IMG/VR virus record: IMGVR_UViG_3300020048_000085
DNA from: a virus
Reading direction: 5' to 3' (one strand)
DNA length: 64,000 bases
The position numbers and the translations under genes were made by a program. Shown piece by piece: positions 5,878 through 63,023 of the stretch. How positions within the stretch are numbered: the first letter of the stretch is position 1; every line of letters begins with the position of its first letter. The notes below the pieces were generated by a model. The model worked only from the letters and a program-made list of their open reading frames with translations, was not told the origin of the DNA and ran no database searches.

Positions 5878-8800
5878 GTGGACAATAAAAGTTTTTTATT
5901 CTTTAATAAAGAAGGGTATCCTCACAACTTCACATACGACACCAACACAGAAAGTTGGAATGGTAAAATAATATTTGACGAAAATTCTGATCAAACATTC
6001 AAAACTCAAAGTTTATATATTTTTGAAAGTGTTGAACCGATAACTTTTGATATTGATGCAGATTTAATAGAAATGAATTATCATAATAATAGTGGAATTA
6101 CCATTGTTTCTGATACAACGTACACAAATCAAGAAATTACAAACATAATAAAAACAAACGAATCTAGTGATTTTTATTCAAAATGGGTATATGGATTAGA
6201 TTTTCATAAGAAATTTCCAATAGGAACTGTAGTATATTTATCTGGTGTAACAGGAACAACATCCACAGATTTTAATGTTGATAATTATTTTACAGTTTTA
6301 GCAGTAAAAAAGAACGCATTTCTAATAGTAACTGAAACAAGTAATGATATATTTAACTTTAGTATATTATCTGGCTACACTAGCTCTCTGAATATGATAT
6401 CAATTAATGATTATAATAGAGATTTATCAACAAATAATACATTAATACAAAACTTATACCCAAATAAAAAGTTTTCAATCATAGATTCAATATCAAATGA
6501 TTCAATAGTAACTGTTAAACAATCTGGTATAACAACATCATATTTAAATGAGATTAAAATAGATGATGAAATAGATAAAATTTTTACATTATCTCTACAA
6601 CTTTTTACTCAAAAACCTATTTTATTACAAAATAATATAATATTATATTCAGACACAATTACAACTGGAACACTTAATGTTGGCAAATATGCTTATTTAT
6701 TATCACCAGAAATAATATACACAAACACTGGTCAAGATATAAGCAAAAAAACTGTTACATTTGAAGATGAACTAGGTAATCAATTATTTGGTGGAATTGA
6801 ATTTACTATAGATTCATTAATCACAGAATCTGTATTAGGCACTAAAGATTTAATATTTAAAACTTTCTATGATGAATCTAAAGTTAAATATAGATCATAT
6901 AGTGTTATAAGTAACACAACAAAATGGAACACAATTCAATATGATAATCAATTAGATATTAAAATTGGAGATATTATATCACTAAGCGGAGTAACAACAA
7001 GCGGAAACACTGGTGCTACTTACTTAATGAATAATAGAGAATTTAGTATAATAGATGTTATTTATGATCCAATTAAAAATACAACTATGTTATTTGTATC
7101 TGGTTATATTATAGATGAAAATAATTCTGCATATATAATAACTAAAAAATTACAATCTAATCAAATAAAAAGTGTAAATTTTAGTTCAAGTGGTGATATA
7201 TCACTATTTACTGGCAATACAAATAATGCATATTGTTATTCAACTTCAAATATATTAAATTACTCACAATCTTATATTAGTGGAAATACAAATAATATAT
7301 CATATGATACTATCACAGCATTTTTAAAAAAATATAAAAATGTTTTAAATACATATGGTATAGATGCTTATTATACATCAAGAAATAATACTGATTATTT
7401 ATCTGTTGAAAGTCTATATGGTGCAAAATATAATTATTTTTCAGTATCTGGTTATACAAATGATGTTAAAATAGTAGATAATTTTGATTTAAGTGTTAAT
7501 GGAACAACAAACAAATATGATATTATAATAAATGAAAAATTAATAAATGAAAAAACAAATAAATCAGACACTGGATTATATAAACCTGATGCACATTCTG
7601 AGATTGTTTTAAATTTACAAAGTGATAATGATAGATTTGGTTTTAAATTAACATTAAATAGTATAGAATATAGTATAGATTACTCAGTTGATAGTCAAAC
7701 CACAATTAATAACTTTATAAATATATACTATGACATTATGTATAGTAATGGTTATAATATTTATAGCGGTTATACTTCTGAATATAGTGGTTACACTCTA
7801 AATATACAATCAGATATCGATATTTGGAATTTAGAAATAATAACAAATATATTATCAACATATAAAATAATTGAAAATCAAAGAAATAAATCAATATTAC
7901 TTTCAGGTAATGAATTAAAAACAACAGCAGATTTATTCAACTTAGAATTATCAACAGGTATGTTATTGAAAATAACTGGTAGTACATATAACACTAACAA
8001 CAAAGAATATAATATCATATCATTAACTGAAAATAACATAACATTATCATACCAAGGTGTATTCACAAGTGATATTAACATCATAATCACTGGAACAACA
8101 AGAGAGTTCATTAGAAAACCTAGAGGTGATTATAATAGAGATGTATATCTTAATGTTTCTTGGAAAAAACCATATGAAAATAATATAGATGAATCAATAT
8201 TTTTTTATGATATATCAGGTGATCAATTAACACCTTATAATAATATTGAAAATTTAAGATATACAGGACCAACACCATTAATAAATTTAAATGAAAATAA
8301 TATTGTTATACTAAATAACGAAGCTAATAATAAAATATCAGAGGTTAATAATCCAAAAGCACAACAAACAATATTTAATGAACTCAATTTTAAATTAGAG
8401 CAATTAGATTCATCTCTTGCTTATGATTATATACCAGAACCATTAGAAATATTTTTCGGTTACAATTCAACTGAAGAAGGCTTTAACACAAAAACAATAA
8501 ATATTAAAAAACTAATAAAATCAGAAAATAACAATAATTATTTTTCGATTAGTGGATATACAAATCCAATATCATCAATATCATTAATTAATTTTACATT
8601 AATAGATAATATTATAAATATATCAGCACCAATTAATTTTAATTTTAAAAACTATTTTGAAATAGGACAACTTATAAAATTAGAATTTATTGATCAAAAT
8701 GAATATAAACAATTAATACAAGAAAATATTAACATATATAAAATTTCAGATATATCAAGAAATAAAATATATATTGACACAGAATATACATATGAAAATG

Positions 8801-10116
8801 AAACTGGTGATTATGTATATTCTGACTCAGGTTTTACATATTTTAATACAACTGGTAATACATATTATTATAAAATCGAGGTACAACCAAAAGAAATTTT
8901 ATCTTGTGTATTATATGGACAAACAGAAATAGAAGATATTAGATTTAAAGTAAATTTAAATAATCTTGGTGTACAATTAGAAGATGATATATATGAAATA
9001 TTATATCAATCTGATATAGAAGATAAAGCAATAGATTATATATTATTAAATAAGAAAAGAAAAGAAATGCTATTAAATTATAGAGAGATTTATGATTATG
9101 TAGGTTCATATAAAGCATTAATAAATGCCATAAACTTTTTTGGATATAATGATTTATATTTATATGAATATTATAGAAATATTAATAAATCATCAGCTCT
9201 ATATGGTAAATTACATAAAATATTAATTCCTGATATGTTTGATAATAGTGTACAAGGTTGGACAGAAACAGATTTTATTAGTGCTAAATATCAAAATAAT
9301 TTATCATGGAAGAAAACCAATTTATTTAACTTATCATATTCTATAACTGATAATGATGGTGATAATATATTAATATATTCATTAGATGAAGTGCAATATA
9401 AATTAACTAAATTAAAAACATGGTTAAGAAAACATATTATACCATTATCAACAAATTTAGTGGATATAACAGGCGTAGCTAATACTGAACAAACATTATA
9501 TCAAAATTATGATGAATCAAATCAAGTTAAAAAAACAGTAGTAAATAGAAAATCTACAGTTGTTAATTTCAATTATACATCTACTTTAAATTTTGGAACA
9601 GATTATTTAGTGACAGTTAATTTTTATGTATTATCTGGTACCACTGGTACAATTTTAGACAATAATGAAATTCCAAATGAATTTTCAGTTAAAATTAAAA
9701 CTTTTTATCTTTCAGGTGAAACATTTAATAACCCAACAGAAACTTTAATTCCTGTTCAATACATAAAATTACACAAAACAGATTTAACATCATTTAGTTT
9801 CAGTTTAAATAAAAATGTGGATCCATATATTTATATTGAAACAACAACTTATGATAATGATGGTAATGGTATTGGATATATTAATAACAAATTATTCTAT
9901 TATGATGAACCAAGAAATTATTGGTTAGTTAATCACAATTTTGATTTAACAAAAATGGTATACTTACAAACAGAAAATTATATTGATAATAATAAACAAA
10001 CAGACACACAAAATATTATATATGATAATAGTACATTAATACCATCATCAGTTGAAACTATTGTAAAGGTAAATACATTAAATCAAACATATATATCACA
10101 AATATCAACAAATTAA
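5878..10116 (+). CDS. Very large (about 1400 aa) N/T/S/Y-rich hypothetical protein, probably a virion structural protein; the start is uncertain (GTG at 5878, first in-frame ATG near 6070)
   Basis: Continuous 4.2-kb frame. A TATATATA element sits about 20 nt upstream of 5878. The composition is typical of phage fibre or baseplate proteins. No motifs were recognised. Confidence 0.55.
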   Translation: MDNKSFLFFNKEGYPHNFTYDTNTESWNGKIIFDENSDQTFKTQSLYIFESVEPITFDIDADLIEMNYHNNSGITIVSDTTYTNQEITNIIKTNESSDFYSKWVYGLDFHKKFPIGTVVYLSGVTGTTSTDFNVDNYFTVLAVKKNAFLIVTETSNDIFNFSILSGYTSSLNMISINDYNRDLSTNNTLIQNLYPNKKFSIIDSISNDSIVTVKQSGITTSYLNEIKIDDEIDKIFTLSLQLFTQKPILLQNNIILYSDTITTGTLNVGKYAYLLSPEIIYTNTGQDISKKTVTFEDELGNQLFGGIEFTIDSLITESVLGTKDLIFKTFYDESKVKYRSYSVISNTTKWNTIQYDNQLDIKIGDIISLSGVTTSGNTGATYLMNNREFSIIDVIYDPIKNTTMLFVSGYIIDENNSAYIITKKLQSNQIKSVNFSSSGDISLFTGNTNNAYCYSTSNILNYSQSYISGNTNNISYDTITAFLKKYKNVLNTYGIDAYYTSRNNTDYLSVESLYGAKYNYFSVSGYTNDVKIVDNFDLSVNGTTNKYDIIINEKLINEKTNKSDTGLYKPDAHSEIVLNLQSDNDRFGFKLTLNSIEYSIDYSVDSQTTINNFINIYYDIMYSNGYNIYSGYTSEYSGYTLNIQSDIDIWNLEIITNILSTYKIIENQRNKSILLSGNELKTTADLFNLELSTGMLLKITGSTYNTNNKEYNIISLTENNITLSYQGVFTSDINIIITGTTREFIRKPRGDYNRDVYLNVSWKKPYENNIDESIFFYDISGDQLTPYNNIENLRYTGPTPLINLNENNIVILNNEANNKISEVNNPKAQQTIFNELNFKLEQLDSSLAYDYIPEPLEIFFGYNSTEEGFNTKTINIKKLIKSENNNNYFSISGYTNPISSISLINFTLIDNIINISAPINFNFKNYFEIGQLIKLEFIDQNEYKQLIQENINIYKISDISRNKIYIDTEYTYENETGDYVYSDSGFTYFNTTGNTYYYKIEVQPKEILSCVLYGQTEIEDIRFKVNLNNLGVQLEDDIYEILYQSDIEDKAIDYILLNKKRKEMLLNYREIYDYVGSYKALINAINFFGYNDLYLYEYYRNINKSSALYGKLHKILIPDMFDNSVQGWTETDFISAKYQNNLSWKKTNLFNLSYSITDNDGDNILIYSLDEVQYKLTKLKTWLRKHIIPLSTNLVDITGVANTEQTLYQNYDESNQVKKTVVNRKSTVVNFNYTSTLNFGTDYLVTVNFYVLSGTTGTILDNNEIPNEFSVKIKTFYLSGETFNNPTETLIPVQYIKLHKTDLTSFSFSLNKNVDPYIYIETTTYDNDGNGIGYINNKLFYYDEPRNYWLVNHNFDLTKMVYLQTENYIDNNKQTDTQNIIYDNSTLIPSSVETIVKVNTLNQTYISQISTN

Positions 10117-31381: not shown

Positions 31382-33262
31382 ATGTCAAATAGTTCAAAAA
31401 TTATGAAGATTAATGCAAATGTTTTAATGGAATGGACATTTGATAGTGAAAATAATATAAGTGAAAATTATAAAGTTATAACCAATCTTAACGAAAAAAA
31501 GAAAAGAAGCTTTCTTTCTAATTCTACAACAAATAATATTGATAATAACTTGTTTTTATTGGATTCAGTATTGAGAAAATATACTAATATTAATACATCT
31601 AAATATAATTTTTTACAATATCAGGATTATAATACAGCTCCTATTCCATATGATAAAGTAAAATTATATTTACCAACAAATTATAATTTTGTAACAAATG
31701 GTTATGTAGGTTTATATATCAAAATTTATACATATGATTATTATAATGAAAAAGTTTTTGAGTTATCAAATATATTCTTTGATTCAACATCGAGTGTATC
31801 AGGAATTGCTCAACTATCAACACCATTTATATATGATGAACAAGAATGGGGTAAATATTATGAATTTCAAATACCATCTATAGATTATGTTTCTAATCAG
31901 AGATCAATTTCTATAACTGGTAATACAGTATGGAATAATACAATAAATGATGATTTGACTCTTGGTGTAGGATTAAGTCAAACTTCACCTATATTTGTAG
32001 ATTTTCAATATTTAGTATCAAAAGAAATTGTTCTTGGTACAACATATTATTATTCATCTGAATCTTATCGTACATCATTTCCAAAAGCTGCAGAATATAG
32101 TACATTAGCTGTAAATATAAATGAATCTACAGAAGGTGATTTTTTTGAAATATTTGGAACTTATGATGGCTCCACAGAAAATTTAGATAACTTTATACGA
32201 GAGCAAGAAAATAAAGGTCGTAGAATACGTATTGAATATGATATTTATTTATACGAAGAAAATATTCAAACAAATATGCAAACTGTGGTTGTTGCAGGCG
32301 GTGGTCCAAATGATGATTTTACAAAGAAAATTTTATATAGACCAATTTTAACTTTTTCAAATACAACTGCTTTCATAAAAGTTATTATGAGAGTTATAGA
32401 TTTAGTTGATATTAGTACAATTGAAAGAACAGCAACATTAGGATTAAGTAGTAATATTCAAAAATATGGCAAAAAATTAATAAGTTTGAATATACAAAAT
32501 ATTAACAAATTAAAAATATATAATGCAAAACCAGATGAAATAGTATTAGGTAATGATTATTTATCAGGAAATATTACAACAGAAATAGTAAAAGTAAATT
32601 CTCCACAATTAATAGAAGTTGGTAAAATTATTGTTAATAGTTCAGCATCATCATCAACAAATAGTGAATATAAATCAATGGGTTTACTAAATATAGTTAT
32701 CACACCATTTGATAATATTATTCAATTTAGATTAGCGTCACTTACATCAACTAGTAAATCAACTAATCAACTAGAAATATATAATTTATCCAATATACTA
32801 AATAATGCTGAATTAGTATTAATATTTAAATCTGATACAGAAATAATAGAAAAAACTATTTATAAAGAATCTAATAATGATTATGTAAATGGTATTGTAA
32901 ATTTTAAAATAATAGAAAATGATATAAAAGTATTAAAATCAATATATTCTAAAGGATTTACTAATTTTTATTTGACATTAGTAGCAAATAATCAATCAGC
33001 AACCAGTACAATTCAAGTTATGGGAAAAGATAAGGTTAGAACATTGTTATATTCTGGTACATATACACTATTTGAAAATATCACATTTGTTGATAATAAT
33101 ATTAATTATGTGTCAGATTTAAGTGATTCTATTCCAATATCATCAACTACAAATAATATATCAACAGATAATACTACTATATCAGAACCAGAATGGCCTA
33201 AAGCAGGTAGAACAGTTATTATATACACTAAATATAAAGATACATCTTCTACATCAAATTAA
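31382..33262 (+). CDS. Hypothetical large protein (626 aa), possibly structural
   Basis: ORF with N/T/S/Y-rich composition. A TATATATAGAAAAAAA element lies about 25 nt upstream. Confidence 0.5.
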   Translation: MSNSSKIMKINANVLMEWTFDSENNISENYKVITNLNEKKKRSFLSNSTTNNIDNNLFLLDSVLRKYTNINTSKYNFLQYQDYNTAPIPYDKVKLYLPTNYNFVTNGYVGLYIKIYTYDYYNEKVFELSNIFFDSTSSVSGIAQLSTPFIYDEQEWGKYYEFQIPSIDYVSNQRSISITGNTVWNNTINDDLTLGVGLSQTSPIFVDFQYLVSKEIVLGTTYYYSSESYRTSFPKAAEYSTLAVNINESTEGDFFEIFGTYDGSTENLDNFIREQENKGRRIRIEYDIYLYEENIQTNMQTVVVAGGGPNDDFTKKILYRPILTFSNTTAFIKVIMRVIDLVDISTIERTATLGLSSNIQKYGKKLISLNIQNINKLKIYNAKPDEIVLGNDYLSGNITTEIVKVNSPQLIEVGKIIVNSSASSSTNSEYKSMGLLNIVITPFDNIIQFRLASLTSTSKSTNQLEIYNLSNILNNAELVLIFKSDTEIIEKTIYKESNNDYVNGIVNFKIIENDIKVLKSIYSKGFTNFYLTLVANNQSATSTIQVMGKDKVRTLLYSGTYTLFENITFVDNNINYVSDLSDSIPISSTTNNISTDNTTISEPEWPKAGRTVIIYTKYKDTSSTSN

Positions 33263-40300: not shown

Positions 40301-40350
40301 AAACAAATAGTGTCTCTATTTAATTAATAATAGTTATAATAAAAAATAAG

Positions 40351-40385
40351 TCTTGAATAATTTTGTTTGTTCAAGATTTTTTTTT
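40351..40385 (+). terminator. Intrinsic terminator hairpin plus T9, forming part of a repeated terminator-promoter cassette
   Basis: tcttgaataa - ttttgt - ttgttcaaga (one G-U pair) followed by TTTTTTTTT. It is nearly identical to the cassette at 59838. Confidence 0.6.
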
Positions 40386-40392
40386 ATCTTTG
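40385..40392 (+). promoter_or_regulatory. TATCTTTG -7-like promoter element with TTTG 19 nt upstream
   Basis: A copy of the recurring 9-mer TATCTTTGT, about 33 nt upstream of the ATG at 40426. Confidence 0.4.
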
Positions 40393-40425
40393 TATTTCAA
40401 TTTAAAATTAAAAAAATGGAACACA

Positions 40426-41714: not shown

Positions 41715-42281
41715 ATGATAGAATTTTTTAACTCTCTAGATATGTTTAGTAAAACATTATTTTTTATGGCTTTTGGAACAGGTGTATTATTTATTATCCA
41801 AAATTTAATTGTGTTTTTAGGAATGGATCATGATAGTGATATTGATACTGATTCAGATATTGATTCAGAACACAACTCTGGTAAATCATTTGGTTGGTTT
41901 TCATTTAAAAACGTTGTTAATTTTATTCTAATTTTTTCATTAGTAGGATTAATAACAGTAGGTTCTGGAATATCAAAACCAGTATCATTATTAATAGCAT
42001 CAATAGCAGGTATTATATTTGTTTATGTGATGATATTATTATTCAATCTAATGAAAAAACTCTCTCAAGATAATACACCAACATTAACTGATTTAGTTGG
42101 AGAAACTGGTGTAGTATATTTAAAAATACCTGCAGTAGGAAATGGAAAAATAAAAATAATGCATGGCGGAGCAATTCAAATATTAGATGCGTGTTCAGAA
42201 GGTATAGTAATCACAAGAGATTCAAATGTTAAGGTGTCTAAAATTGTAGGACATACTATAATAGTAGAAGAAATAAAATAA
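41715..42281 (+). CDS. NfeD-like membrane protein (short form, YuaF/YqiJ-like) partnered with flotillin
   Basis: N-terminal transmembrane helices plus a C-terminal beta-rich OB-like segment (GVVYLKIPAVGNGKIKIMHGGAIQILDA). It sits immediately upstream of an SPFH protein, as in bacterial nfeD-floT operons. Confidence 0.55.
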   Translation: MIEFFNSLDMFSKTLFFMAFGTGVLFIIQNLIVFLGMDHDSDIDTDSDIDSEHNSGKSFGWFSFKNVVNFILIFSLVGLITVGSGISKPVSLLIASIAGIIFVYVMILLFNLMKKLSQDNTPTLTDLVGETGVVYLKIPAVGNGKIKIMHGGAIQILDACSEGIVITRDSNVKVSKIVGHTIIVEEIK

Positions 42282-42328
42282 TCAATAAAAATAATTTATA
42301 AATAAAAACAATTTAATTTAAAAAAAAC

Positions 42329-43831
42329 ATGAGTAGTACATTAACGTTAATTTTAATCGTAGTAGTTGCGATTTCAGTATTTTCAATTATTGTTGCCTTA
42401 GTAAAAAGGTACAAACGTTGCCCATCAGATAAACTTTTAGTTATTTATGGTAAAACAGGCAAAACTGATGGTAAAGCATCAGCAGCAAAAGTAATTCATG
42501 GTGGTGGTGCATTTGTTTGGCCAGTCATTCAGGATTATACTTTCTTAGATTTGAAACCAATTTCAATTGATATTAATTTGAAAGGTGCATTATCTAAACA
42601 AAACATACGTATTGATGTTCCATCAGTATTTACAGTTGCAATATCAGGTGGAGATGGAATACGTGAGAATGCTGCTGAGAAATTACTTGGACTTCAAAAA
42701 CAAGAAATAGCACAATTAGCACAAGATATTATTCTTGGTCAAATGCGTTTAGTTATCGCAATGATGAACATTGAAGAAATAAATGCTGACCGTGACAAAT
42801 TTCTTGAAAATATTCAAAAAAATCTTGAAGATGAGCTTCAAAAAATTGGTCTAAGACTTATTAATGTAAATATCACAGATATTAGTGATGAATCAAACTA
42901 CATTAAATCATTAGGACAGAATGCAGCATCAGGAGCTATTAATGAAGCTGCAATTCAAGTTGCACAGAAGAATAAAGATGGTGCTATTGGTGTTGCAACA
43001 GCAGATAGAGAAAAACGTGTGAGTGTTGCTGCTGCGCAAGCAGAAGCACAAATTGGTGAAGCTGATGCAAGTCAAAAAATGAGAGCAGAAACTGCTGCAT
43101 TAAATGCAAAGGCTATTGCTGGTGAAAATAGTGCATTTGTTGAAATAGCAAAAACTAATGCTAGTAGACAAATTGCAGAAGCTGATGCAAAGAAAGACTC
43201 AGTTACTGCTGAAAATGTAAAAGCAGCAGAAGCAAAACAAGCATCATATGATGCTGAAAAATTAGCAGAAACAAAACGTGCTGAAAGAGATAAAGCAACT
43301 CAATATGCAAATATTGTTGTACCTGCTGAAATAGCAAAAGAAAAACTTATTGTTGAAGCTGCTGCAAATGCAGAATCAACTAGAGTAATTGCAAAAGGTG
43401 ATGCTGATGCAATGTTTGCTAAAATGGAAGCAGAAGCAAGAGGTATAAATGAAATACTAACAAAGCAAGCTGAAGGTTTTGCAAAGTTAGTTCAAGCTGC
43501 TGGTGGAGATGCTGCAAAAGCTGTTCAATTGATGATTGCTGATAAATTACCAGAACTTACAAGAATTCAAGTTGATGCTATCAAAAATATCAAATTTGAT
43601 AAGATTACAGTTTGGGATAATGGTGGAAATGGCTCAGGAAATTCTACTGCAAATTTTGCAAAAAATTTATTTTCAATGATTCCACCACTTACTGACATTT
43701 TCAAACAAGTTGGTGCTGAATTACCAGCATTTATGCAAGGTGCAGGAGAACAAAAAACAAATGAACTTGAAGCAGAAAACTCTGTCACTAAAGTAATAAA
43801 AGACGAAACAACTGATAATAGTAAATCATAA
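42329..43831 (+). CDS. Flotillin-like SPFH/band-7 protein (FloT/YqiK type) with Ala/Glu-rich coiled-coil repeats
   Basis: N-terminal TM anchor and an SPFH core (VIHGGGAFVWPVIQDYTFLDLKP...). There is a long EA-repeat region (AAQAEAQIGEADASQKMRAETAALNAKA...). GC is visibly higher than in the surrounding sequence. Confidence 0.75.
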   Translation: MSSTLTLILIVVVAISVFSIIVALVKRYKRCPSDKLLVIYGKTGKTDGKASAAKVIHGGGAFVWPVIQDYTFLDLKPISIDINLKGALSKQNIRIDVPSVFTVAISGGDGIRENAAEKLLGLQKQEIAQLAQDIILGQMRLVIAMMNIEEINADRDKFLENIQKNLEDELQKIGLRLINVNITDISDESNYIKSLGQNAASGAINEAAIQVAQKNKDGAIGVATADREKRVSVAAAQAEAQIGEADASQKMRAETAALNAKAIAGENSAFVEIAKTNASRQIAEADAKKDSVTAENVKAAEAKQASYDAEKLAETKRAERDKATQYANIVVPAEIAKEKLIVEAAANAESTRVIAKGDADAMFAKMEAEARGINEILTKQAEGFAKLVQAAGGDAAKAVQLMIADKLPELTRIQVDAIKNIKFDKITVWDNGGNGSGNSTANFAKNLFSMIPPLTDIFKQVGAELPAFMQGAGEQKTNELEAENSVTKVIKDETTDNSKS

Positions 43832-45141: not shown

Positions 45142-45368
45142 AAGAAGATTTAGAAAAAAAAGAAGATTTAGAAAAAATTCAAAAGTTAATAGATGAAGGT
45201 AATAAAAGACTTGCAATAGTATCAACAATTTGGGCTGCATCAACAACACCAATAGTTTTTTTATTTCCTGAAAAATATATTCCAGTATTTGTTATCTGTT
45301 GGATGATTTGGGCTATTATTGGAGTTTTTTTATCACCTAAAATTATAAATAAAATATGGCAAAAGTAG
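45138..45368 (+). CDS. Small membrane protein (2 predicted TM helices)
   Basis: IVSTIWAASTTPIVFLFP and VFVICWMIWAIIGVFL hydrophobic segments. It overlaps its neighbours by a few nt. Confidence 0.4.
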   Translation: MKEDLEKKEDLEKIQKLIDEGNKRLAIVSTIWAASTTPIVFLFPEKYIPVFVICWMIWAIIGVFLSPKIINKIWQK

Positions 45369-45769
45369 ATTTTATAACACTAGCAAATATCATCTTTAAA
45401 GATAAAGATAAATATAAATTTGTTTCTGATGAAGAAAAAGAAGATACATTTTTTATGCTTAATAGAAAATTTGCATATAAGTATATAAAGAAAGCTCAAT
45501 TCTTTAATAATAAAAACACAAATAAAGCATCATCTATTGATATTTGGTATAAAATATTCTATAATACAACAAATGGTACTCCTCAATGGTGGTGGCAAAC
45601 AAAACAACCTTCAAAAAATAAAGTTAAATCTGAATTTAATAATAATGATTTGAAATTTATAAAGGATTATTATGATATTAAAGATAGAGATATTGAGTTT
45701 TTGATAAAATATTATAATCAAGAACTAAAAGATGATATTAAAAGACTGAAAAAATTTAGTAAAGAATAA
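45356..45769 (+). CDS. Hypothetical protein (137 aa)
   Basis: ORF followed by a hairpin terminator. Confidence 0.4.
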   Translation: MAKVDFITLANIIFKDKDKYKFVSDEEKEDTFFMLNRKFAYKYIKKAQFFNNKNTNKASSIDIWYKIFYNTTNGTPQWWWQTKQPSKNKVKSEFNNNDLKFIKDYYDIKDRDIEFLIKYYNQELKDDIKRLKKFSKE

Positions 45770-45803
45770 AAAAGTGGATTACAATGTAATCCACTTTTTT
45801 TAT
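45769..45803. terminator. Bidirectional intrinsic terminator
   Basis: aagtggattaca / tgtaatccactt inverted repeat followed by T7. Confidence 0.6.
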
Positions 45804-46561
45804 ATTGTAATGTTTAATGCGACATGACGTTGATTTGTTATATAATATGATTTTGTTGTTTTTATTTTATCTAAATATTTCCCATTTCTTAATATTATTA
45901 TATCATATAAATTACCTCTATTACTCTTTATTTCTCTATATAAACCCAAATAATTAGTATTAAAACTTAATGAACCATCTGATTCAATTTTTATGTTATC
46001 TTCTACTCTACATTGATTAAGAAATGGTTTTACTTGAAGAGTAAATTTTTCATTATTGTATATAAATGAGCCATCAATACCAGAAATATCTTCAGCGACA
46101 GTTGGATTTGTTATTTTACCACCAATAAGTTTTTCAAAAGCTTTTTTCACTTCAATTTCTCCTCTAGAACCTTTGTTTGATGTGCGTGTTATAATAGTAT
46201 ATGAGTTATCAAAAAAAACTCCATCGTAATGAAATAACTGAAATAAATTATTTTTTATATATTTGAAAAAAGTCTCTTTATCTCTTATTTCATTTCTTTT
46301 AATTATACTATTGTAGTTTTTAAAATTATGAATAAATTTACCAATATATTCTGTTTTATATTTTTTATCATTTATTTCAATAATTTTATTTACTCCATAT
46401 ACAAATCCAAATTTAGAATAAACACTATCAAGATATTTATGAATATAATCATCTATTTCATTTAAATCATGTTTCGTTAATTCTATTTCTACATATTCTT
46501 TATTCATATTAATATAAGATAACTTTTTTATTTCAGGTATCTTCTGCGTATTATCTATCAT
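45800..46561 (-). CDS. Hypothetical protein (253 aa)
   Basis: ORF. It is preceded on the minus strand by the terminator of the candidate small RNA. Confidence 0.45.
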   Translation of the reverse strand: MIDNTQKIPEIKKLSYINMNKEYVEIELTKHDLNEIDDYIHKYLDSVYSKFGFVYGVNKIIEINDKKYKTEYIGKFIHNFKNYNSIIKRNEIRDKETFFKYIKNNLFQLFHYDGVFFDNSYTIITRTSNKGSRGEIEVKKAFEKLIGGKITNPTVAEDISGIDGSFIYNNEKFTLQVKPFLNQCRVEDNIKIESDGSLSFNTNYLGLYREIKSNRGNLYDIIILRNGKYLDKIKTTKSYYITNQRHVALNITI

Positions 46562-46599
46562 ATTTATTTAATTAGTTATTAATCAATACAAATATAACG

Positions 46600-46780
46600 A
46601 AAAAAAGTGAAACAACCTAATGTTTCACCTTTTAATTTAAAAAATAAATAAGAGAGATAGCTTACACACACCTAAAAATTATTTAATTCGCCAGGACCTT
46701 ACCCTGAATCTCTCCGTTTGTATAAATACAAAAACCTAGAAAACTTTAAAAAAGTTTCACTAGGTTTGTCATATTTAATA
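46600..46780 (-). ncRNA. Candidate structured small RNA (about 180 nt) with its own intrinsic terminator; function unknown
   Basis: A 330-bp ORF-free island with clearly higher GC. Minus-strand reading gives a long imperfect hairpin (aaacctagtgaaac...gtttcactaggttt on the plus strand at 46732-46767), a closing stem gagagat/atctctc (46652-58 with 46708-14), and a terminal hairpin gtgaaaca-N6-tgtttcac (46607-28) followed by U7. No tRNA-like T-arm was found. Confidence 0.35.
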
Positions 46781-46891
46781 TTATAATAACAGATGTTTTA
46801 TTCATAAATTGTATATTATATATAAATCATTTTATTTGATTTTTTTCTAATAAATATAACTTAATTATTTATTATTTAAATTCTAAATTGA

Positions 46892-47440
46892 TTATAATTT
46901 ACATATTCTATCACCAGCACTAGATGCTCCATATGCAAAAGGCTTACCCATAACTTTATATTTTTCTCCACATAACCAACCCATTACATCATTATATATT
47001 TTGTTTGATTTATTATTAGACATTCTTGCTCCATTTCTTGTGGATTTTGTTGAATTTAAATCTACATGTATCTCAACTAATTTTTCTGGTATTGAATTAT
47101 CATAATAATTTCTATCAAATTTATAGTAGTAATTACCCCTTAAAGAATCATCCAATGATTCAGCAATTTTGTGAGCTGCAACTGCTTCATCCCATAATTT
47201 TGTTATCATATCTTTCTTAGGTACATTATATTTAGTATAAACTACATGAGCACCATTTCTTTTAAATTCATTATAAAATACAACTGTAATAGCATAACTA
47301 GTTTGTCTTGATCGAGTATTAGAATCACAACCAACAATAATTTTACTTTTATTATCTATATTTTTAACATAATTTAATACATATTCATTTATGTTTGAAA
47401 TTTTTTCACCGTTTGCTTTTTTCCATACTAAGTTTGTCAT
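46892..47440 (-). CDS. Hypothetical protein (182 aa)
   Basis: ORF only; no motif recognised. Confidence 0.45.
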   Translation of the reverse strand: MTNLVWKKANGEKISNINEYVLNYVKNIDNKSKIIVGCDSNTRSRQTSYAITVVFYNEFKRNGAHVVYTKYNVPKKDMITKLWDEAVAAHKIAESLDDSLRGNYYYKFDRNYYDNSIPEKLVEIHVDLNSTKSTRNGARMSNNKSNKIYNDVMGWLCGEKYKVMGKPFAYGASSAGDRICKL

Positions 47441-51867: not shown

Positions 51868-52380
51868 ATGGATAATTTTGAGACATTTTTTAAATTCTGG
51901 ATAAATAAGAAAGTAAGAAAACAACTTAATGTGATAGATGAAATTTCAAAAGAAACTGGAATTGATGCTAAGAATTGGTTTATTAATGATTTTTTAGTTA
52001 GAAATATTAATAACCATGCTGGTGATGAATTTTTAGATGTTTTACTTGAAAATTTTCTATTAGAATTGTCAAATAAATTTGAGTATCTATTTAAGGATTA
52101 TATAGAACCAGAAAGGTATAATATTTACAAAGAACCAATCTTTGATATTAATATTAGTCTTGACTATGATTATAAAAACAATTGTATTATTATTGATGAA
52201 TATACTACAGATGATGACAAAGAACATATCATAAAAATAATAAAATCTTTGACTTTGGAACAAAAATTAGAATTGATGAATAATAAAATTTTTTCATATG
52301 TTATAAATAAAACAAAATTAGAAGTTTTTTCAATTAAAGATATAAGGGCTTTAAAATTAAAAAGTCTAAATGGATTATAA
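51868..52380 (+). CDS. Hypothetical protein; the start is moved to MDNFETFF (the track ORF begins at 51829 inside the promoter)
   Basis: It is the first ATG downstream of the TATCTTTGT element. Confidence 0.45.
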   Translation: MDNFETFFKFWINKKVRKQLNVIDEISKETGIDAKNWFINDFLVRNINNHAGDEFLDVLLENFLLELSNKFEYLFKDYIEPERYNIYKEPIFDINISLDYDYKNNCIIIDEYTTDDDKEHIIKIIKSLTLEQKLELMNNKIFSYVINKTKLEVFSIKDIRALKLKSLNGL

Positions 52381-52591
52381 TTTCAAATATAAAGTTGGAG
52401 ATGTTATAGATAAAAATCATTTTATATGTACTATTAAACATTTAGATTATCATTATTATGATATAGAATATTATGATTCGAATAATATTAAAAAATATAC
52501 ATTTGTTGATGCAATATATTTAGACGCAGCATCAAAATTAGAGTTAAAATATAGTAGAAAAGAAAAATTGAAAATAATAAATGAGTCATAA
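52370..52591 (+). CDS. Small protein with a KYKVGD small-barrel motif and an ELKYSRKEKLK tail
   Basis: It is paralogous to 52581..52814 and has an overlapping start/stop. Confidence 0.45.
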   Translation: MDYNFKYKVGDVIDKNHFICTIKHLDYHYYDIEYYDSNNIKKYTFVDAIYLDAASKLELKYSRKEKLKIINES

Positions 52592-52814
52592 GTGTAAATA
52601 TAAAGCAGGTGATATTGTAGTTTATTTTGGAGTATTAATTAATATTAAATTGGTTGATTTTCCTAAATATGGTATTGAATATATTAATCACATTAATACA
52701 CAGTATTCTGCAATTGATTCAAATTTTTTAGATTTAAATTCAGAATTAGAGTTAAAATATAGTAGAAAAGAAAAAATAAAAAAATTAAATGAAACTTCAA
52801 CAATGGTTAAATAG
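52581..52814 (+). CDS. Paralog of 52370..52591 (KYKAGDIV ... ELKYSRKEKIKKLN)
   Basis: It shares the N-terminal G-D-hydrophobic motif and the C-terminal tail. Confidence 0.45.
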   Translation: MSHKCKYKAGDIVVYFGVLINIKLVDFPKYGIEYINHINTQYSAIDSNFLDLNSELELKYSRKEKIKKLNETSTMVK

Positions 52815-53364
52815 TGCATATTTTTTAGAAAAAAATCAATTTGAAAAACGTGAATTATTAAAAGGTAGTATACTCACTGATAATTATTGTAATATCGGTA
52901 ATAATGTTACATGTTTTGATACTGAACCATATTGTTCTAAGATGAATGAGAGATTTTATTCTAAATCATCAAATAAATCTTGTGATTTAACTATTGGTAA
53001 ATCATATGAAATATTAGATCATAGAAAAGGAAAAATAAAAATATCTAATGATAGTAATAAGATAGTGTATGTCACAATTCATAGATTTATGTATTCTATC
53101 AAATATGAAAGAAAAGAAAAATTAATTAATATAAATAACTCAGAAGAAAATATTTTAAATGATACAACAAATAAAAAATTAATTTGTGTGTTGTGTGGTC
53201 AAGAATGGGGTAACATAAATAAATTCACAAATACTTGTGAAAATGAAAATTGTAGAGGATTTTGTACATGGGGATACGAGCCAATGAAACCTGAAAGTTT
53301 TGATATTAACGAAAATAATTTTTGGATTTTAAAAACAATACCTAAAAATATCAATGATTTATAA
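52789..53364 (+). CDS. Cys-rich hypothetical protein (191 aa) with an internal YERKEKLININ motif
   Basis: CVLCGQEW...CENENCRGFC cysteine cluster. Confidence 0.4.
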   Translation: MKLQQWLNSAYFLEKNQFEKRELLKGSILTDNYCNIGNNVTCFDTEPYCSKMNERFYSKSSNKSCDLTIGKSYEILDHRKGKIKISNDSNKIVYVTIHRFMYSIKYERKEKLININNSEENILNDTTNKKLICVLCGQEWGNINKFTNTCENENCRGFCTWGYEPMKPESFDINENNFWILKTIPKNINDL

Positions 53365-59816: not shown

Positions 59817-59837
59817 AAATATAATTTTAAAAATATA

Positions 59838-59872
59838 TCTTGAATAATTTGGTTTATTCAAGATTTTTTTTT
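59838..59872 (+). terminator. Intrinsic terminator hairpin plus T9; the second copy of the terminator-promoter cassette
   Basis: tcttgaataa - tttggt - ttattcaaga is a perfect 10-bp stem, followed by TTTTTTTTT. Confidence 0.65.
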
Positions 59873-59879
59873 ATCTTTG
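59872..59879 (+). promoter_or_regulatory. TATCTTTG -7-like promoter element with TTTG 20 nt upstream, driving ligA
   Basis: TATCTTTGT lies about 40 nt upstream of the ATG at 59916. It is embedded in the repeated cassette. Confidence 0.4.
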
Positions 59880-59915
59880 TTTTTCAAAATATAAACAATA
59901 AAAATAATAATTATT

Positions 59916-61794: not shown

Positions 61795-61828
61795 AAAAAC
61801 GTGGTGTATTATGCACCACGTTTTTTAT
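61795..61828. terminator. Bidirectional intrinsic terminator between ligA and the convergent GIY-YIG gene
   Basis: Stem aacgtggtg / caccacgtt followed by T6. Confidence 0.6.
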
Positions 61829-63020
61829 ATTTTGGAAAAAATTCATCTAACCAACCATTAATAGAAGAATAATTATATGCACTCCAAACACTTTTTCGAA
61901 ACTCACATCTAGAATTATATTTTTTAGATTCTTTTTCACACAATTCTTTATTATTCCAATATCTAAATATTGTTTTTGTTCTTATTGGATCAAGTAAATG
62001 TTGCCAATCTTTTTTTAGAATTGTAGTATATGCTCCTCCTGAATATTTAATAAAATCTGATAATTTTTCATATTTTTCGACTTCAATTTTACAAGATTCT
62101 ATTGTCCATTTTAAATCATGTGAACCAATTCCACCAGTTTTAACTTCATTTAATAATATCCATCCATTATTTTTATAATCATTAAGAGTTTCACCTTCTA
62201 ATAAAATTGCCAAATCAACATCTATGTAATCTGATTTTATTTTCAAAATAGGTTTCAGATTTGTTTCGTTCATATATTTTTTTACTGAACTTTTATCTTT
62301 TCCTATAATGTGCTGATTATTTCTTCTTTTTATATTTCCAGTTAACCCTACATAACAATGATTATCAGAAAATTCATAAGTATATATTAAACGTTTATAT
62401 TTATTTCCAATTTTCTTCAAATGTGATAATAATTCTAACCAATTTTCTTTATAAATTTTATTGTGTGCTGATACATATTTACTTTTCAACTCCTTTTTTG
62501 TCTCACATTTTAATGCAACTTCTTTACATTTTTCATAAGTCCAATAATTGTTACATTTTACTATCTTCATAGTTTTTGGCATCAATTCACTCCAATTATT
62601 TTTTAATATTTTTTCATATGCTGAACTACACTTACACTTTAATTCTGTGTTAGTTTTACAACTAGATGATATTTCTTTACACTTTTCATATGTCCAATAA
62701 TTTTTAGGTTTTTTATTTTCAAAAAAGTGTGAAAACAATTCTATCCAATTATTTTTCAAAATATTTCTATATGCGGAGCCATACAATAACATAAATTTGG
62801 TTATGCTCTCACATTCTAAAGCGGCATATTTACAATTTTCGTAATCCCAATATCCTTTTGGTTTTTTTCTCGCTATAATATGTGATATTAATTCATTCCA
62901 TTCATTCTTATTAATTGTATAATATGCGGTATAATATTTATTTTTTAATTCATTTTTGCTGGTGCATTACAACGCAGCTTCTTTACATTTCTCATATGTC
63001 CAATAATTTTTAGGTTTCAT
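61809..63020 (-). pseudogene. GIY-YIG endonuclease with tandem YEKCKE..LKC..ELK repeats, interrupted by a single in-frame TAA (plus-strand 62967..62969); the intact ORF is 61809..62792
   Basis: GIY-YIG core LIYTYEFSDNHCYVGLTGNIKRRNNQH. Reading the minus strand from the ATG at 63020 gives MKPKNYWTYEKCKEAAL, then a stop, then CTSKNELKNKYY...; this is in frame with and continuous into the 61809..62792 ORF. The repeat consensus shows a Lys codon at the stop position (AAA changed to TAA). Confidence 0.45.
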
Positions 63021-63023
63021 ATT

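What the first reader, a model, noticed from the sequence alone, without database searches (positions are those of the whole stretch)
46600..46780. GC-rich ORF-free island with nested hairpins and a terminator: candidate small RNA on the minus strand
The 330-bp gap between two minus-strand genes is visibly richer in G+C than any other non-coding stretch in the window. Read on the minus strand it contains, in order, a long imperfect hairpin, a short palindrome, a 7-bp closing stem enclosing about 50 nt, an AU-rich spacer, and a perfect 8-bp hairpin followed by U7. It sits 45 nt upstream of the next gene. It has no tRNA T-arm and no ORF. It may be a phage-encoded regulatory sRNA, or a cis-acting leader or riboswitch for 45800..46561.
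Basis: seen in the sequence. Interest (0 to 1): 0.6.

Follow-up and report, generated by a model that had tools for sequence, protein, structure and literature searches.

The report
Conserved structured small RNA in huge phages
The flagged gap holds a real, previously undescribed small structured RNA, a three-armed fold with its own terminator, that is shared by a small group of very AT-rich giant phages from environmental metagenomes and is not a control switch for the gene next to it.

Summary
On the minus strand, 46600-46766 carries a long hairpin, a 7-8 bp closing stem around 49 nt, an AU spacer and an 8-bp hairpin followed by U7.

Nine distinct versions exist in related phage contigs of 21-501 kb. 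They share a 65-78 nt three-way junction: P1, P2 with a 7-nt loop NURANGU, a P3 of variable length, and a near-invariant 13-nt junction strand GUGUGUG(G/U)A(A/C)GCU.
- Pairing: 94% of pair cells are paired, and 7 of 17 pairs show compensatory changes.
- Strand: 12 G·U cells point to the minus strand.
- Copy number: a covariance model finds one copy in the window (73.7 bits; the next hit scores 14).
- Known families: none in Rfam, and no tRNA or tmRNA.

The leader/riboswitch reading fails. In three variants the downstream gene is convergent. The terminator sequence changes without any matching antiterminator. The next gene has its own TAnnTTTG box after the terminator.

The best reading is a stand-alone (or 3'-domain) phage small RNA. 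It is driven by a promoter-like motif that recurs in this phage, and it is preceded by a conserved AUG and a mini-ORF that stays open into the first hairpin. Its function is unknown. I infer that it acts in trans through the invariant junction strand.

The parts
46816..46826 (-). Promoter-like motif TTTATATATAA, 10 nt upstream of the conserved AUG
   Evidence: The only exact match in the window. It is conserved in all nine variants as T(T/A)ATATATA(A/G/C), or nearly so. The motif [TA]ATATATA[AG] lies within 60 nt upstream of 17 of 93 window ORFs, against 2.6 +/- 1.6 for random 60-mers. Promoter function is inferred, not shown.
46746..46805 (-). Mini-ORF of 19 codons (MNKTSVIIILNMTNLVKLF); its stop codon lies in the loop of hairpin 1
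   Evidence: The AUG is conserved (ATTATGA). In 8 of 8 variants that have hairpin 1, the AUG frame is open up to the hairpin, while the other two frames carry 1-5 stops. The peptides are 13-46 aa and are not detectably homologous. Translation is not shown.
46733..46766 (-). Hairpin 1: a long imperfect stem-loop with a U-rich tail (UUUUUGUAUUU, to about 46724); terminator-like
   Evidence: It folds at -14 to -24 kcal/mol in all 8 variants that have it. The base AACCUA/UAGGUU is invariant, and the seventh and eighth pairs covary (G-C to A-U; C-G and U-A). It is absent in L034 and lies about 100 nt from the core in L032 and L043.
46649..46717 (-). Core three-way junction. P1: 46708-46715 with 46651-46658. 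P2: 46703-46707 with 46691-46695. P2 loop: 46696-46702 (GUAAGGU). P3: 46687-46690 with 46672-46675. Junction strand J3/1: 46659-46671 (GUGUGUGUAAGCU).
   Evidence: Covariance model R1 hits here at 73.7 bits, E = 2e-19, and nowhere else in the window. On nine variants, 94.1% of pair cells are paired, 7 of 17 pairs change on both sides, and the covariation score is 0.382 against 0.205 in shuffles (0 of 500 reach it) and 0.05-0.17 when partners are slid.
46634..46650 (-). AU-rich spacer between the core and the terminator
   Evidence: Poorly conserved: 0.42 identity between the two subgroups. Its length varies.
46600..46633 (-). Intrinsic terminator T2: 8-bp perfect stem extended by A-U pairs, then U7
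   Evidence: Found by the terminator scan with 13 pairs. The same position holds a terminator of different sequence in L011 and L016 (UCCGAU...AUCGGA) and in L034 (AAGCCACAA...UUGUGGCUU).
46589..46596 (-). TATATTTG box (TAnnTTTG) between T2 and the next gene. It marks the boundary of the RNA unit and is the likely promoter element of 45800-46561.
   Evidence: Present after T2 in all six syntenic variants; L003 has one mismatch (TATATTCG). The same 'terminator then TATCTTTG' arrangement precedes window genes at 40416 and 59916. The motif is only weakly enriched upstream of ORFs: 10 of 93 against 5.8 +/- 2.3. That TAnnTTTG is the Bacteroidota -7 promoter consensus is from my own knowledge.

Best explanation
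This is a gene for a small structured RNA carried by a clade of very AT-rich huge phages.

Proposed transcript in the window (inferred):
- It starts downstream of a phage-type promoter motif at 46816-46826.
- It runs through a short open reading frame and a first terminator-like hairpin (46733-46766).
- It continues through a compact three-way junction (46651-46715).
- It ends at its own intrinsic terminator (46600-46633).
- The full-length RNA would be about 200 nt, with hairpins capping both ends. If transcription or processing begins just after hairpin 1, it would be about 115 nt.

The functional part is the three-way junction.
- P1 stacks directly on P2.
- P3 varies in length.
- The sequence-invariant elements are the 7-nt P2 loop (NURANGU) and the 13-nt junction strand GUGUGUG(G/U)A(A/C)GCU.
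- I infer that these form the recognition surface for a trans partner, most likely a protein and less likely an RNA or a small molecule.

What it is not: it does not regulate the downstream gene 45800-46561 in cis.

Shown: conservation, secondary structure, strand, terminator, single copy in the window, and independence from the downstream gene.
Inferred: the promoter, the transcript ends, action in trans, and any role of the mini-ORF and hairpin 1 in gating synthesis of the core.
For: Family and structure:
- Nine distinct variants were found in phage contigs of 21-501 kb.
- The structure is supported by covariation: 94% of cells paired, 7 of 17 pairs with double changes, 0 of 500 shuffles reaching the observed score, and slid controls 0.05-0.17 against 0.38.
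- There are 12 G·U cells, so pairing falls to 86% if the other strand is read.
- The core is far better conserved than third codon positions of the flanking genes, which are 43-75% identical.

Unit boundaries:
- A terminator is kept at this position while its sequence is replaced.
- There is one copy in the 64 kb window.
- In L032, L034 and L043 the core is followed by a convergent gene.
- In those same three variants an outer helix, GAUGGUGA/UCACCAUC, pairs the two flanks of the core. Stable processed RNAs are often closed this way.
- The upstream promoter-like motif is enriched about six-fold upstream of the window's ORFs.

Junction strand:
- A scan anchored only on P2 and its loop found no member with a different junction strand. 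That pattern would not match the L032-type variant.
Against: - No transcript data exist, so the RNA ends are unknown.
- Hairpin 1 with its U-tract could stop most transcription from the proposed promoter before the core is reached.
- L032 and L043 show no terminator after the core.
- Every variant lies within 1.1 kb downstream of the same RNase H-like gene (PF04308) on the same strand. A cis role on that transcript, or a functional tie to that protein, is therefore not excluded.
- No complementary target of the junction strand occurs in the window.
- The family is narrow: nine variants from one clade. Several of the compensatory changes are therefore shared by descent.
Confidence: 0.6

Rival explanations
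1. Riboswitch or leader. The junction would be an aptamer, and T2 its expression platform controlling read-through into 45800-46561.
For: A conserved junction fold lies directly upstream of an intrinsic terminator, 45 nt before a co-oriented gene. Six of nine variants keep this gene order.
Against: - Three variants have a convergent gene downstream and lack the homologue at this position.
- L012 has the gene without the element.
- The terminator sequence is replaced in L011, L016 and L034 with no matching change in the core or spacer, so no conserved antiterminator exists.
- The only complementarity to T2 is AGUGAAAC in hairpin 1. It carries a mismatch in L013 and is absent in L011 and L016 (read directly from the sequences).
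- A TAnnTTTG box sits between T2 and the gene.
- No Rfam riboswitch model matches.
Confidence: 0.06
2. Cis-acting 3' domain of an upstream message. The junction would belong to the mRNA of the mini-ORF, or of the RNase H-like gene. It would stabilise that transcript, or serve as a binding site for the RNase H-like protein, rather than acting in trans.
For: - All nine variants lie 0.3-1.1 kb downstream of, and co-oriented with, a PF04308 gene.
- In L034 an 82-codon ORF runs into the core, and in L043 a 46-codon ORF precedes it.
Against: - In L032 the RNase H-like gene has its own terminator, and a 2H-phosphoesterase gene lies between it and the element.
- L038 has the RNase H-like gene (68% identity) with no element within 1.5 kb.
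- The mini-ORF peptides are not homologous.
- A sequence-invariant junction strand is more than a 3' stabiliser needs.
Confidence: 0.2
3. Translation-gated attenuator, which can be added to the main reading. Ribosomes translating the mini-ORF would melt hairpin 1, an intrinsic terminator, and so decide whether the core RNA downstream is made.
For: - The AUG is conserved 10-22 nt after the promoter-like motif.
- The AUG frame is open up to or into hairpin 1 in 8 of 8 variants, while both other frames are closed.
- The stop codon lies in the hairpin loop or 3' arm in five variants, at its base in one, and beyond it in two.
- Hairpin 1 is stable and is followed by a U-rich tail in all eight.
Against: - There is no Shine-Dalgarno sequence in most variants.
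- No run of regulatory codons is present.
- No alternative antiterminator hairpin was found.
- L034 lacks hairpin 1.
- In L032 and L043 about 100 nt separate hairpin 1 from the core.
- An open frame of 11-13 codons in a few related sequences is only moderately unlikely by chance.
Confidence: 0.2
4. Self-cleaving ribozyme or other catalytic RNA. The invariant junction strand and loop would form the active site.
For: The core is compact, with a few strictly invariant unpaired nucleotides, and lies between genes in a phage. Several ribozyme classes are found in such settings (own knowledge).
Against: - No hit to hammerhead, twister, twister-sister, pistol, hatchet or HDV-like models, even at E up to 10.
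- The junction layout is 0, 0-1 and 13 unpaired nucleotides. This does not fit the hammerhead core, CUGANGA / GAAA / NUH, which I recall from memory.
Confidence: 0.04
5. Short protein-coding gene. The invariant GUG UGU GGA AGC UAU CUC would encode (M)VCGSYL....
For: - ORF listing reports a 30-codon GTG ORF at 46579-46671.
- In L032 and L034 an ATG precedes this frame.
Against: - The start is ATG, TTG, CTG or GTG, depending on the variant.
- The peptides are 9-42 aa and share nothing after the sixth residue.
- The six conserved codons show no synonymous change. Every substitution seen changes the amino acid, and those in the P1 strand keep the base pair with the other P1 strand.
Confidence: 0.02

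Closest known systems
Stand-alone phage-encoded small RNAs with an intrinsic terminator, such as the small stable RNAs of phage T4 and the sRNAs reported from phage transcriptomes (own knowledge)
   Same: It is a short non-coding unit between protein genes. It is co-oriented with its neighbours, ends at a Rho-independent terminator, and is conserved among related phages.
   Different: There is no sequence or covariance-model similarity to any described family. The three-way junction with an invariant 13-nt junction strand is not a known sRNA scaffold. No target or partner is known.
Riboswitch aptamers built on three-way junctions, such as the purine and TPP classes (own knowledge)
   Same: The size is similar (65-78 nt). 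P1 closes a junction. Invariant nucleotides are concentrated in a junction strand and a loop. One arm varies in length. A terminator follows.
   Different: It is not tied to a downstream gene: 3 of 9 variants have convergent neighbours. No alternative pairing with the terminator is conserved. No Rfam riboswitch model matches. Two of the three junction strands are zero or one nucleotide long.
DUF2815 RNA (Rfam RF03084), a candidate structured RNA
   Same: This is the best Rfam hit. The L034 variant shares GGGAGA, a hairpin whose loop ends in UUGAAGUCC, and a following AAGG...AUG.
   Different: The score is 21.5 bits against a gathering threshold of 41.2. Only one of the three variants scanned (window, L034, L043) matches. 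The model is a single 7-bp hairpin with a 13-nt loop. It has no counterpart of P1, P3 or the junction strand. No DUF2815 gene was seen among the neighbouring genes examined.
tRNA anticodon arm (resemblance of P2 only)
   Same: P2 is a 5-bp stem with a 7-nt loop. U is invariant at loop position 2 and a purine (G) at position 6, matching U33 and R37 of tRNA (for the sequence; tRNA numbering from own knowledge).
   Different: ARAGORN finds no tRNA or tmRNA in the window or in eight relatives. There is no D-arm, T-arm or CCA end. The 'anticodon' varies (AAG, AAA, AAU, GAA).

Membership tests
Any Rfam 15 family | Covariance-model score at or above the family's gathering threshold | tested here: not met
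   There were 0 hits in the whole window at gathering thresholds. At E up to 10, only noise appeared on the window element and on L043. On L034 the best hit was DUF2815 RNA at 21.5 bits against 41.2, alongside matches driven by the terminator.
tRNA / tmRNA | Cloverleaf or tRNA-like domain recognised by ARAGORN | tested here: not met
   No gene was found in the window or in L003, L009, L011, L013, L016, L032, L034 or L043.
Riboswitch / cis-regulatory leader | Lies in the 5' leader of a co-oriented gene in essentially all members | tested here: not met
   L032, L034 and L043 have a convergent gene after the element. L012 has the downstream gene's homologue without the element.
Riboswitch / cis-regulatory leader | Expression platform: conserved, mutually exclusive pairing between the aptamer or spacer and the terminator | tested here: not met
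   Terminator arms differ completely between subgroups (GGUGAAACA, UCCGAUAUAUA, AAGCCACAA), with no co-varying complementary segment upstream. The spacer is poorly conserved.
Riboswitch / cis-regulatory leader | Specific ligand binding by the conserved fold | not testable with these tools
   This needs in-line probing or ITC with candidate ligands.
Intrinsic (Rho-independent) terminator, for 46600-46633 | G+C-containing stem-loop immediately followed by a U-tract on the transcribed strand | tested here: met
   The scan found 13 pairs, a loop of 6, then U7. Functional equivalents with different sequence occur in 7 of 9 variants.
Stand-alone trans-acting small RNA gene | Conserved independently of the flanking protein genes, with its own terminator | tested here: met
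   The downstream neighbour differs in 3 of 9 variants, and a gene is inserted upstream in L032. Terminators are described.
Stand-alone trans-acting small RNA gene | Own promoter and a discrete transcript | not testable with these tools
   A promoter-like motif is conserved and is enriched upstream of ORFs. No transcript data are available.
Leader-peptide transcription attenuator | Short translated ORF overlapping a terminator, with alternative antiterminator pairing and regulatory codons | tested here: inconclusive
   The ORF is open up to the hairpin in 8 of 8 variants, and the other frames are closed. No alternative hairpin or codon run was seen, and translation is untested.
Hammerhead and other small self-cleaving ribozymes | Family-specific conserved core and a covariance-model match | tested here: not met
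   There were no Rfam hits. Junction strands of 0, 0-1 and 13 nt do not fit the hammerhead core (core consensus from own knowledge).

The most novel reading that the evidence does not exclude
The invariant 13-nt junction strand and the NURANGU loop form a pocket with a new activity. This could be a new self-cleaving ribozyme class that cuts the core free after hairpin 1. It could also be a trans-acting sensor RNA that binds a metabolite or a host factor during infection by huge phages. A related possibility is that synthesis of this RNA is gated by translation of the upstream mini-ORF. That would be a leader-peptide attenuator controlling a non-coding RNA rather than an operon.
Probability: 0.08. 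Interest if true: 0.8.

Novelty: new member of a known kind. Interest (0 to 1): 0.5.

Why it matters
As far as I know, huge phages are still largely unexplored for structured RNAs other than tRNAs, tmRNAs and CRISPR arrays. This element is a compact, covariation-supported fold with strictly invariant unpaired nucleotides. It is kept while neighbouring genes, terminators and spacers are swapped, which is the signature of an RNA that does something specific.

It gives a small, well-defined candidate (65-120 nt) for biochemical work such as in-line probing, pull-downs and cleavage assays, and for metatranscriptome mapping.

It also yields practical annotation clues for this phage group: a likely phage promoter motif, T(T/A)ATATATA(A/G), and a TAnnTTTG box that matches the Bacteroidota promoter consensus and so hints at a Bacteroidota host.

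The limits are a narrow family of nine variants from one clade and an unknown function.

Tried and rejected
- **Rfam.** I scanned the whole window at gathering thresholds and three members at E up to 10. Only sub-threshold noise appeared. The DUF2815 RNA hit (21.5 against 41.2 bits, L034 only) is rejected as membership.
- **ARAGORN.** Nothing in the window or in eight relatives.
- **GenBank phages.** blastn in distant mode gave one weak hit, inside the downstream gene only, to a 635-kb uncultured phage.
- **First exact-pattern and single-protein scans of IMG/VR.** No hits.
- **Metagenome and GTDB genome scans with a pattern based on the junction strand.** These returned only the same variants plus two chance hits in G+C-rich coding DNA, L023 and L026. 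I therefore found no copy in any bacterial genome.
- **IMG/VR scan anchored on P2.** No new members; two chance hits, L046 and L047.
- **Complement of the junction strand in the window.** Only the element itself.
- **Sigma-70 promoter scan.** Fewer hits than in shuffles, so uninformative in this AT-rich DNA.
- **Literature.** The junction-strand sequence appears in no relevant paper, and YkuK/DUF458 is described only as an uncharacterised RNase H1-like family.
- **Antiterminator between hairpin 1 (AGUGAAAC) and T2 (GUUUCACU).** Rejected because it is not kept in L013, L011 or L016.
- **Tertiary pairing between the P2 loop and the junction strand.** No complementarity and no covariation.
- **Homology between mini-ORF peptides.** None found.

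Full report
**The observation**

- A long imperfect hairpin at 46733-46766.
- A short palindrome at 46719-46730.
- A closing stem GAGAGAU/AUCUCUC around 49 nt.
- An AU-rich spacer.
- An 8-bp perfect hairpin followed by U7, with the stem ending 45 nt before the next ATG.

These features are unlikely to be chance.
- The region folds much better than shuffles: z = -5.9 on the minus strand and -4.0 on the plus strand.
- The terminator scan picks up the last hairpin.
- The 80-nt G+C peak is 0.36 in a window of 22.8% G+C.
- The three other gaps with similar peaks appear, on reading their sequences, to be coding sequence missed by my ATG-only ORF map. I did not run their translations.

**Relatives**

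- The element has no Rfam match and no tRNA or tmRNA.
- GenBank phages hold nothing similar in the gap.
- Two short assemblies carry the identical sequence.
- Homologues of the downstream protein (36-45% identity) led to syntenic contigs that keep a gap of 297-341 nt with the same layout.
- DNA-pattern scans and a scan with the RNase H-like protein added further contigs from IMG/VR viral genomes of 21-501 kb.
- After collapsing duplicates there are nine distinct variants: the window, L003, L009, L011, L013, L016, L032, L034 and L043.
- Metagenome and GTDB genome scans added no new variant and no bacterial copy.
- The window also encodes thymidine kinase, an NAD-dependent DNA ligase and a homing-endonuclease-like protein. 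Together with the IMG/VR origin of its relatives, this fits a large phage.

**The structure**

All nine variants share a three-way junction.
- P1 has 7-8 bp.
- P2 follows with no linker (UCRGG/CCYGA) and has a 7-nt loop NURANGU.
- P3 starts with a C-G pair and varies from 4 bp with a short loop to more than 10 bp.
- A 13-nt junction strand, GUGUGUG(G/U)A(A/C)GCU, leads back into P1.

The pair counts support this fold.
- On the model-based alignment, 94.1% of 152 pair cells are standard pairs.
- 7 of 17 pairs have changes on both sides.
- The covariation score is 0.382 against 0.205 +/- 0.024 in shuffles (0 of 500 reach it) and 0.05-0.17 when partners are slid (similar on the MAFFT alignment).
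- In P1, the pair in columns 5/77 of alignment A6 occurs as A-U, G-C and U-A.
- In P2, one pair changes from A-U to G-C.
- Twelve cells are G·U, so reading the other strand drops pairing to 86%. The RNA is therefore on the window's minus strand.
- The model finds exactly one copy in the 64 kb window (73.7 bits; the next hit scores 14).
- Third codon positions of the flanking genes are only 43-75% identical between variants, whereas P1-P2 and the junction strand are almost invariant.
- A scan anchored only on P2 and its loop found no member with a different junction strand. The invariance is therefore not just a product of my search patterns, although that pattern would not match the L032-type variant.

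**What surrounds the core**

Downstream:
- Seven variants have an intrinsic terminator after the core.
- Its sequence differs between subgroups: GGUGAAACA..., UCCGAUAUAUA... and AAGCCACAA....
- Function is thus kept while sequence is replaced.

Upstream:
- Eight variants have hairpin 1. Its base AACCUA/UAGGUU is invariant, its upper stem covaries, and a U-rich tail follows.
- Further upstream, all variants have T(T/A)ATATATA(A/G/C) followed 10-22 nt later by a conserved AUG.
- That motif lies within 60 nt upstream of 17 of 93 window ORFs, against 2.6 +/- 1.6 for random 60-mers. It is probably a promoter element of this phage.
- From the AUG a frame stays open up to or into hairpin 1 in 8 of 8 variants, while both other frames are closed.
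- The resulting peptides are 13-46 aa and are not homologous.
- In the window this mini-ORF is 46746-46805, and its stop codon lies in the hairpin loop.

**Why it is not a leader or riboswitch of 45800-46561**

- In L034 the homologue of that gene is missing. The core and its terminator abut a convergent gene, the homologue of window 45356-45769.
- In L032 and L043 the core is also followed by convergent genes.
- In those three variants an outer helix (GAUGGUGA/UCACCAUC) pairs the two flanks of the core, as in stable processed RNAs.
- L012 has a homologue of the gene with no element.
- Nothing upstream covaries with the different terminator arms, so there is no conserved antiterminator.
- Between T2 and the gene, all six syntenic variants carry TAnnTTTG; L003 has one mismatch.
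- The same 'terminator then TATCTTTG' unit precedes other window genes. The gene therefore probably has its own promoter.
- That TAnnTTTG matches the Bacteroidota -7 consensus is from my own knowledge, and its enrichment here is weak.

**Context**

- Every variant lies 0.3-1.1 kb downstream of, and co-oriented with, the RNase H-like (YkuK/DUF458) gene. The literature describes this family only as an uncharacterised RNase H1-like group.
- The link is not obligatory. L038 has the gene without the element nearby.
- In L032 a terminator and a 2H-phosphoesterase gene intervene.
- The 253-aa downstream protein has no sequence-level annotation. A model of moderate confidence gives weak matches to PD-(D/E)xK nucleases.

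**Best explanation**

- This is a stand-alone structured small RNA, or the structured 3' domain of a very short message, made from a phage promoter and ended by its own terminator.
- I infer that the invariant junction strand and loop form a binding surface for a trans partner.
- The mini-ORF and hairpin 1 may gate how much core RNA is made.
- The fold, strand, terminator, copy number in the window and independence from the downstream gene are shown.
- The promoter, the transcript ends and the mode of action are inferred.
- No target for the junction strand lies in the window.
- I file it as a new family within a known kind, phage-encoded structured small RNAs, and it is not a member of any described family.

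Noticed in passing
window 40348-40415 and 59835-59915 (+ strand): Two nearly identical regulatory cassettes. Each is a terminator hairpin, TCTTGAATAATTT(T/G)GTTT(G/A)TTCAAGA plus T9, followed at once by ATCTTTGT (TAnnTTTG-like). They lie upstream of the genes starting at 40416 and 59916 (an NAD-dependent DNA ligase). The same 'terminator then box' layout follows the RNA element.
   Followed up: partly
window-wide, for example upstream of ORFs at 31382, 48737, 49420, 43867, 36466 and 50653: The motif [TA]ATATATA[AG] lies within 60 nt upstream of 17 of 93 ORFs, against 2.6 expected. It often occurs back-to-back between divergent genes. It is probably the commonest promoter element of this phage.
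   Followed up: partly
window 45768-45800: A perfect 15-pair hairpin flanked by A6 and T6 lies between the convergent genes 45356-45769 (+) and 45800-46561 (-). The scan calls it a terminator on both strands.
   Followed up: no
window 41715-43831 (+): An NfeD-like protein (weak Pfam hit) followed by a 500-aa SPFH/Band 7 (flotillin-like) protein. This membrane-scaffold pair is unusual in a phage genome.
   Followed up: partly
window 52370-53364 (+): Three adjacent small ORFs share a C-terminal motif (ELKYSRKEK(L/I)K..N.S, and KYERKEKLININNS in the third). They look like a tandem paralogue family of unknown function.
   Followed up: no
window 45800-47440 compared with L003, L009, L011, L013 and L016: The locus is mosaic. 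The window's RNase H-like protein is closest to L011 and L016 (81-82% identity). Its RNA region and downstream gene are closest to L003, L009 and L013. This implies recombination within or next to the RNA locus.
   Followed up: partly
L032 2114-2848 (501-kb viral contig): A 2H-phosphoesterase (2'-5' RNA ligase superfamily, with a weak Acb1-like hit) lies between the RNase H-like gene and the RNA element. With the PD-(D/E)xK-like downstream gene of the other variants, the RNA sits among nucleic-acid-processing genes.
   Followed up: partly
window 62793-63023 (-) and 5880-6072 (+): These G+C-rich 'gaps' in an ATG-only ORF map appear to be in-frame extensions of the adjacent ORFs (61809-62792 and 6073-10116). 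If so, those genes start further upstream than the first ATG I used. This comes from my own reading of the sequence; I ran no translation.
   Followed up: partly
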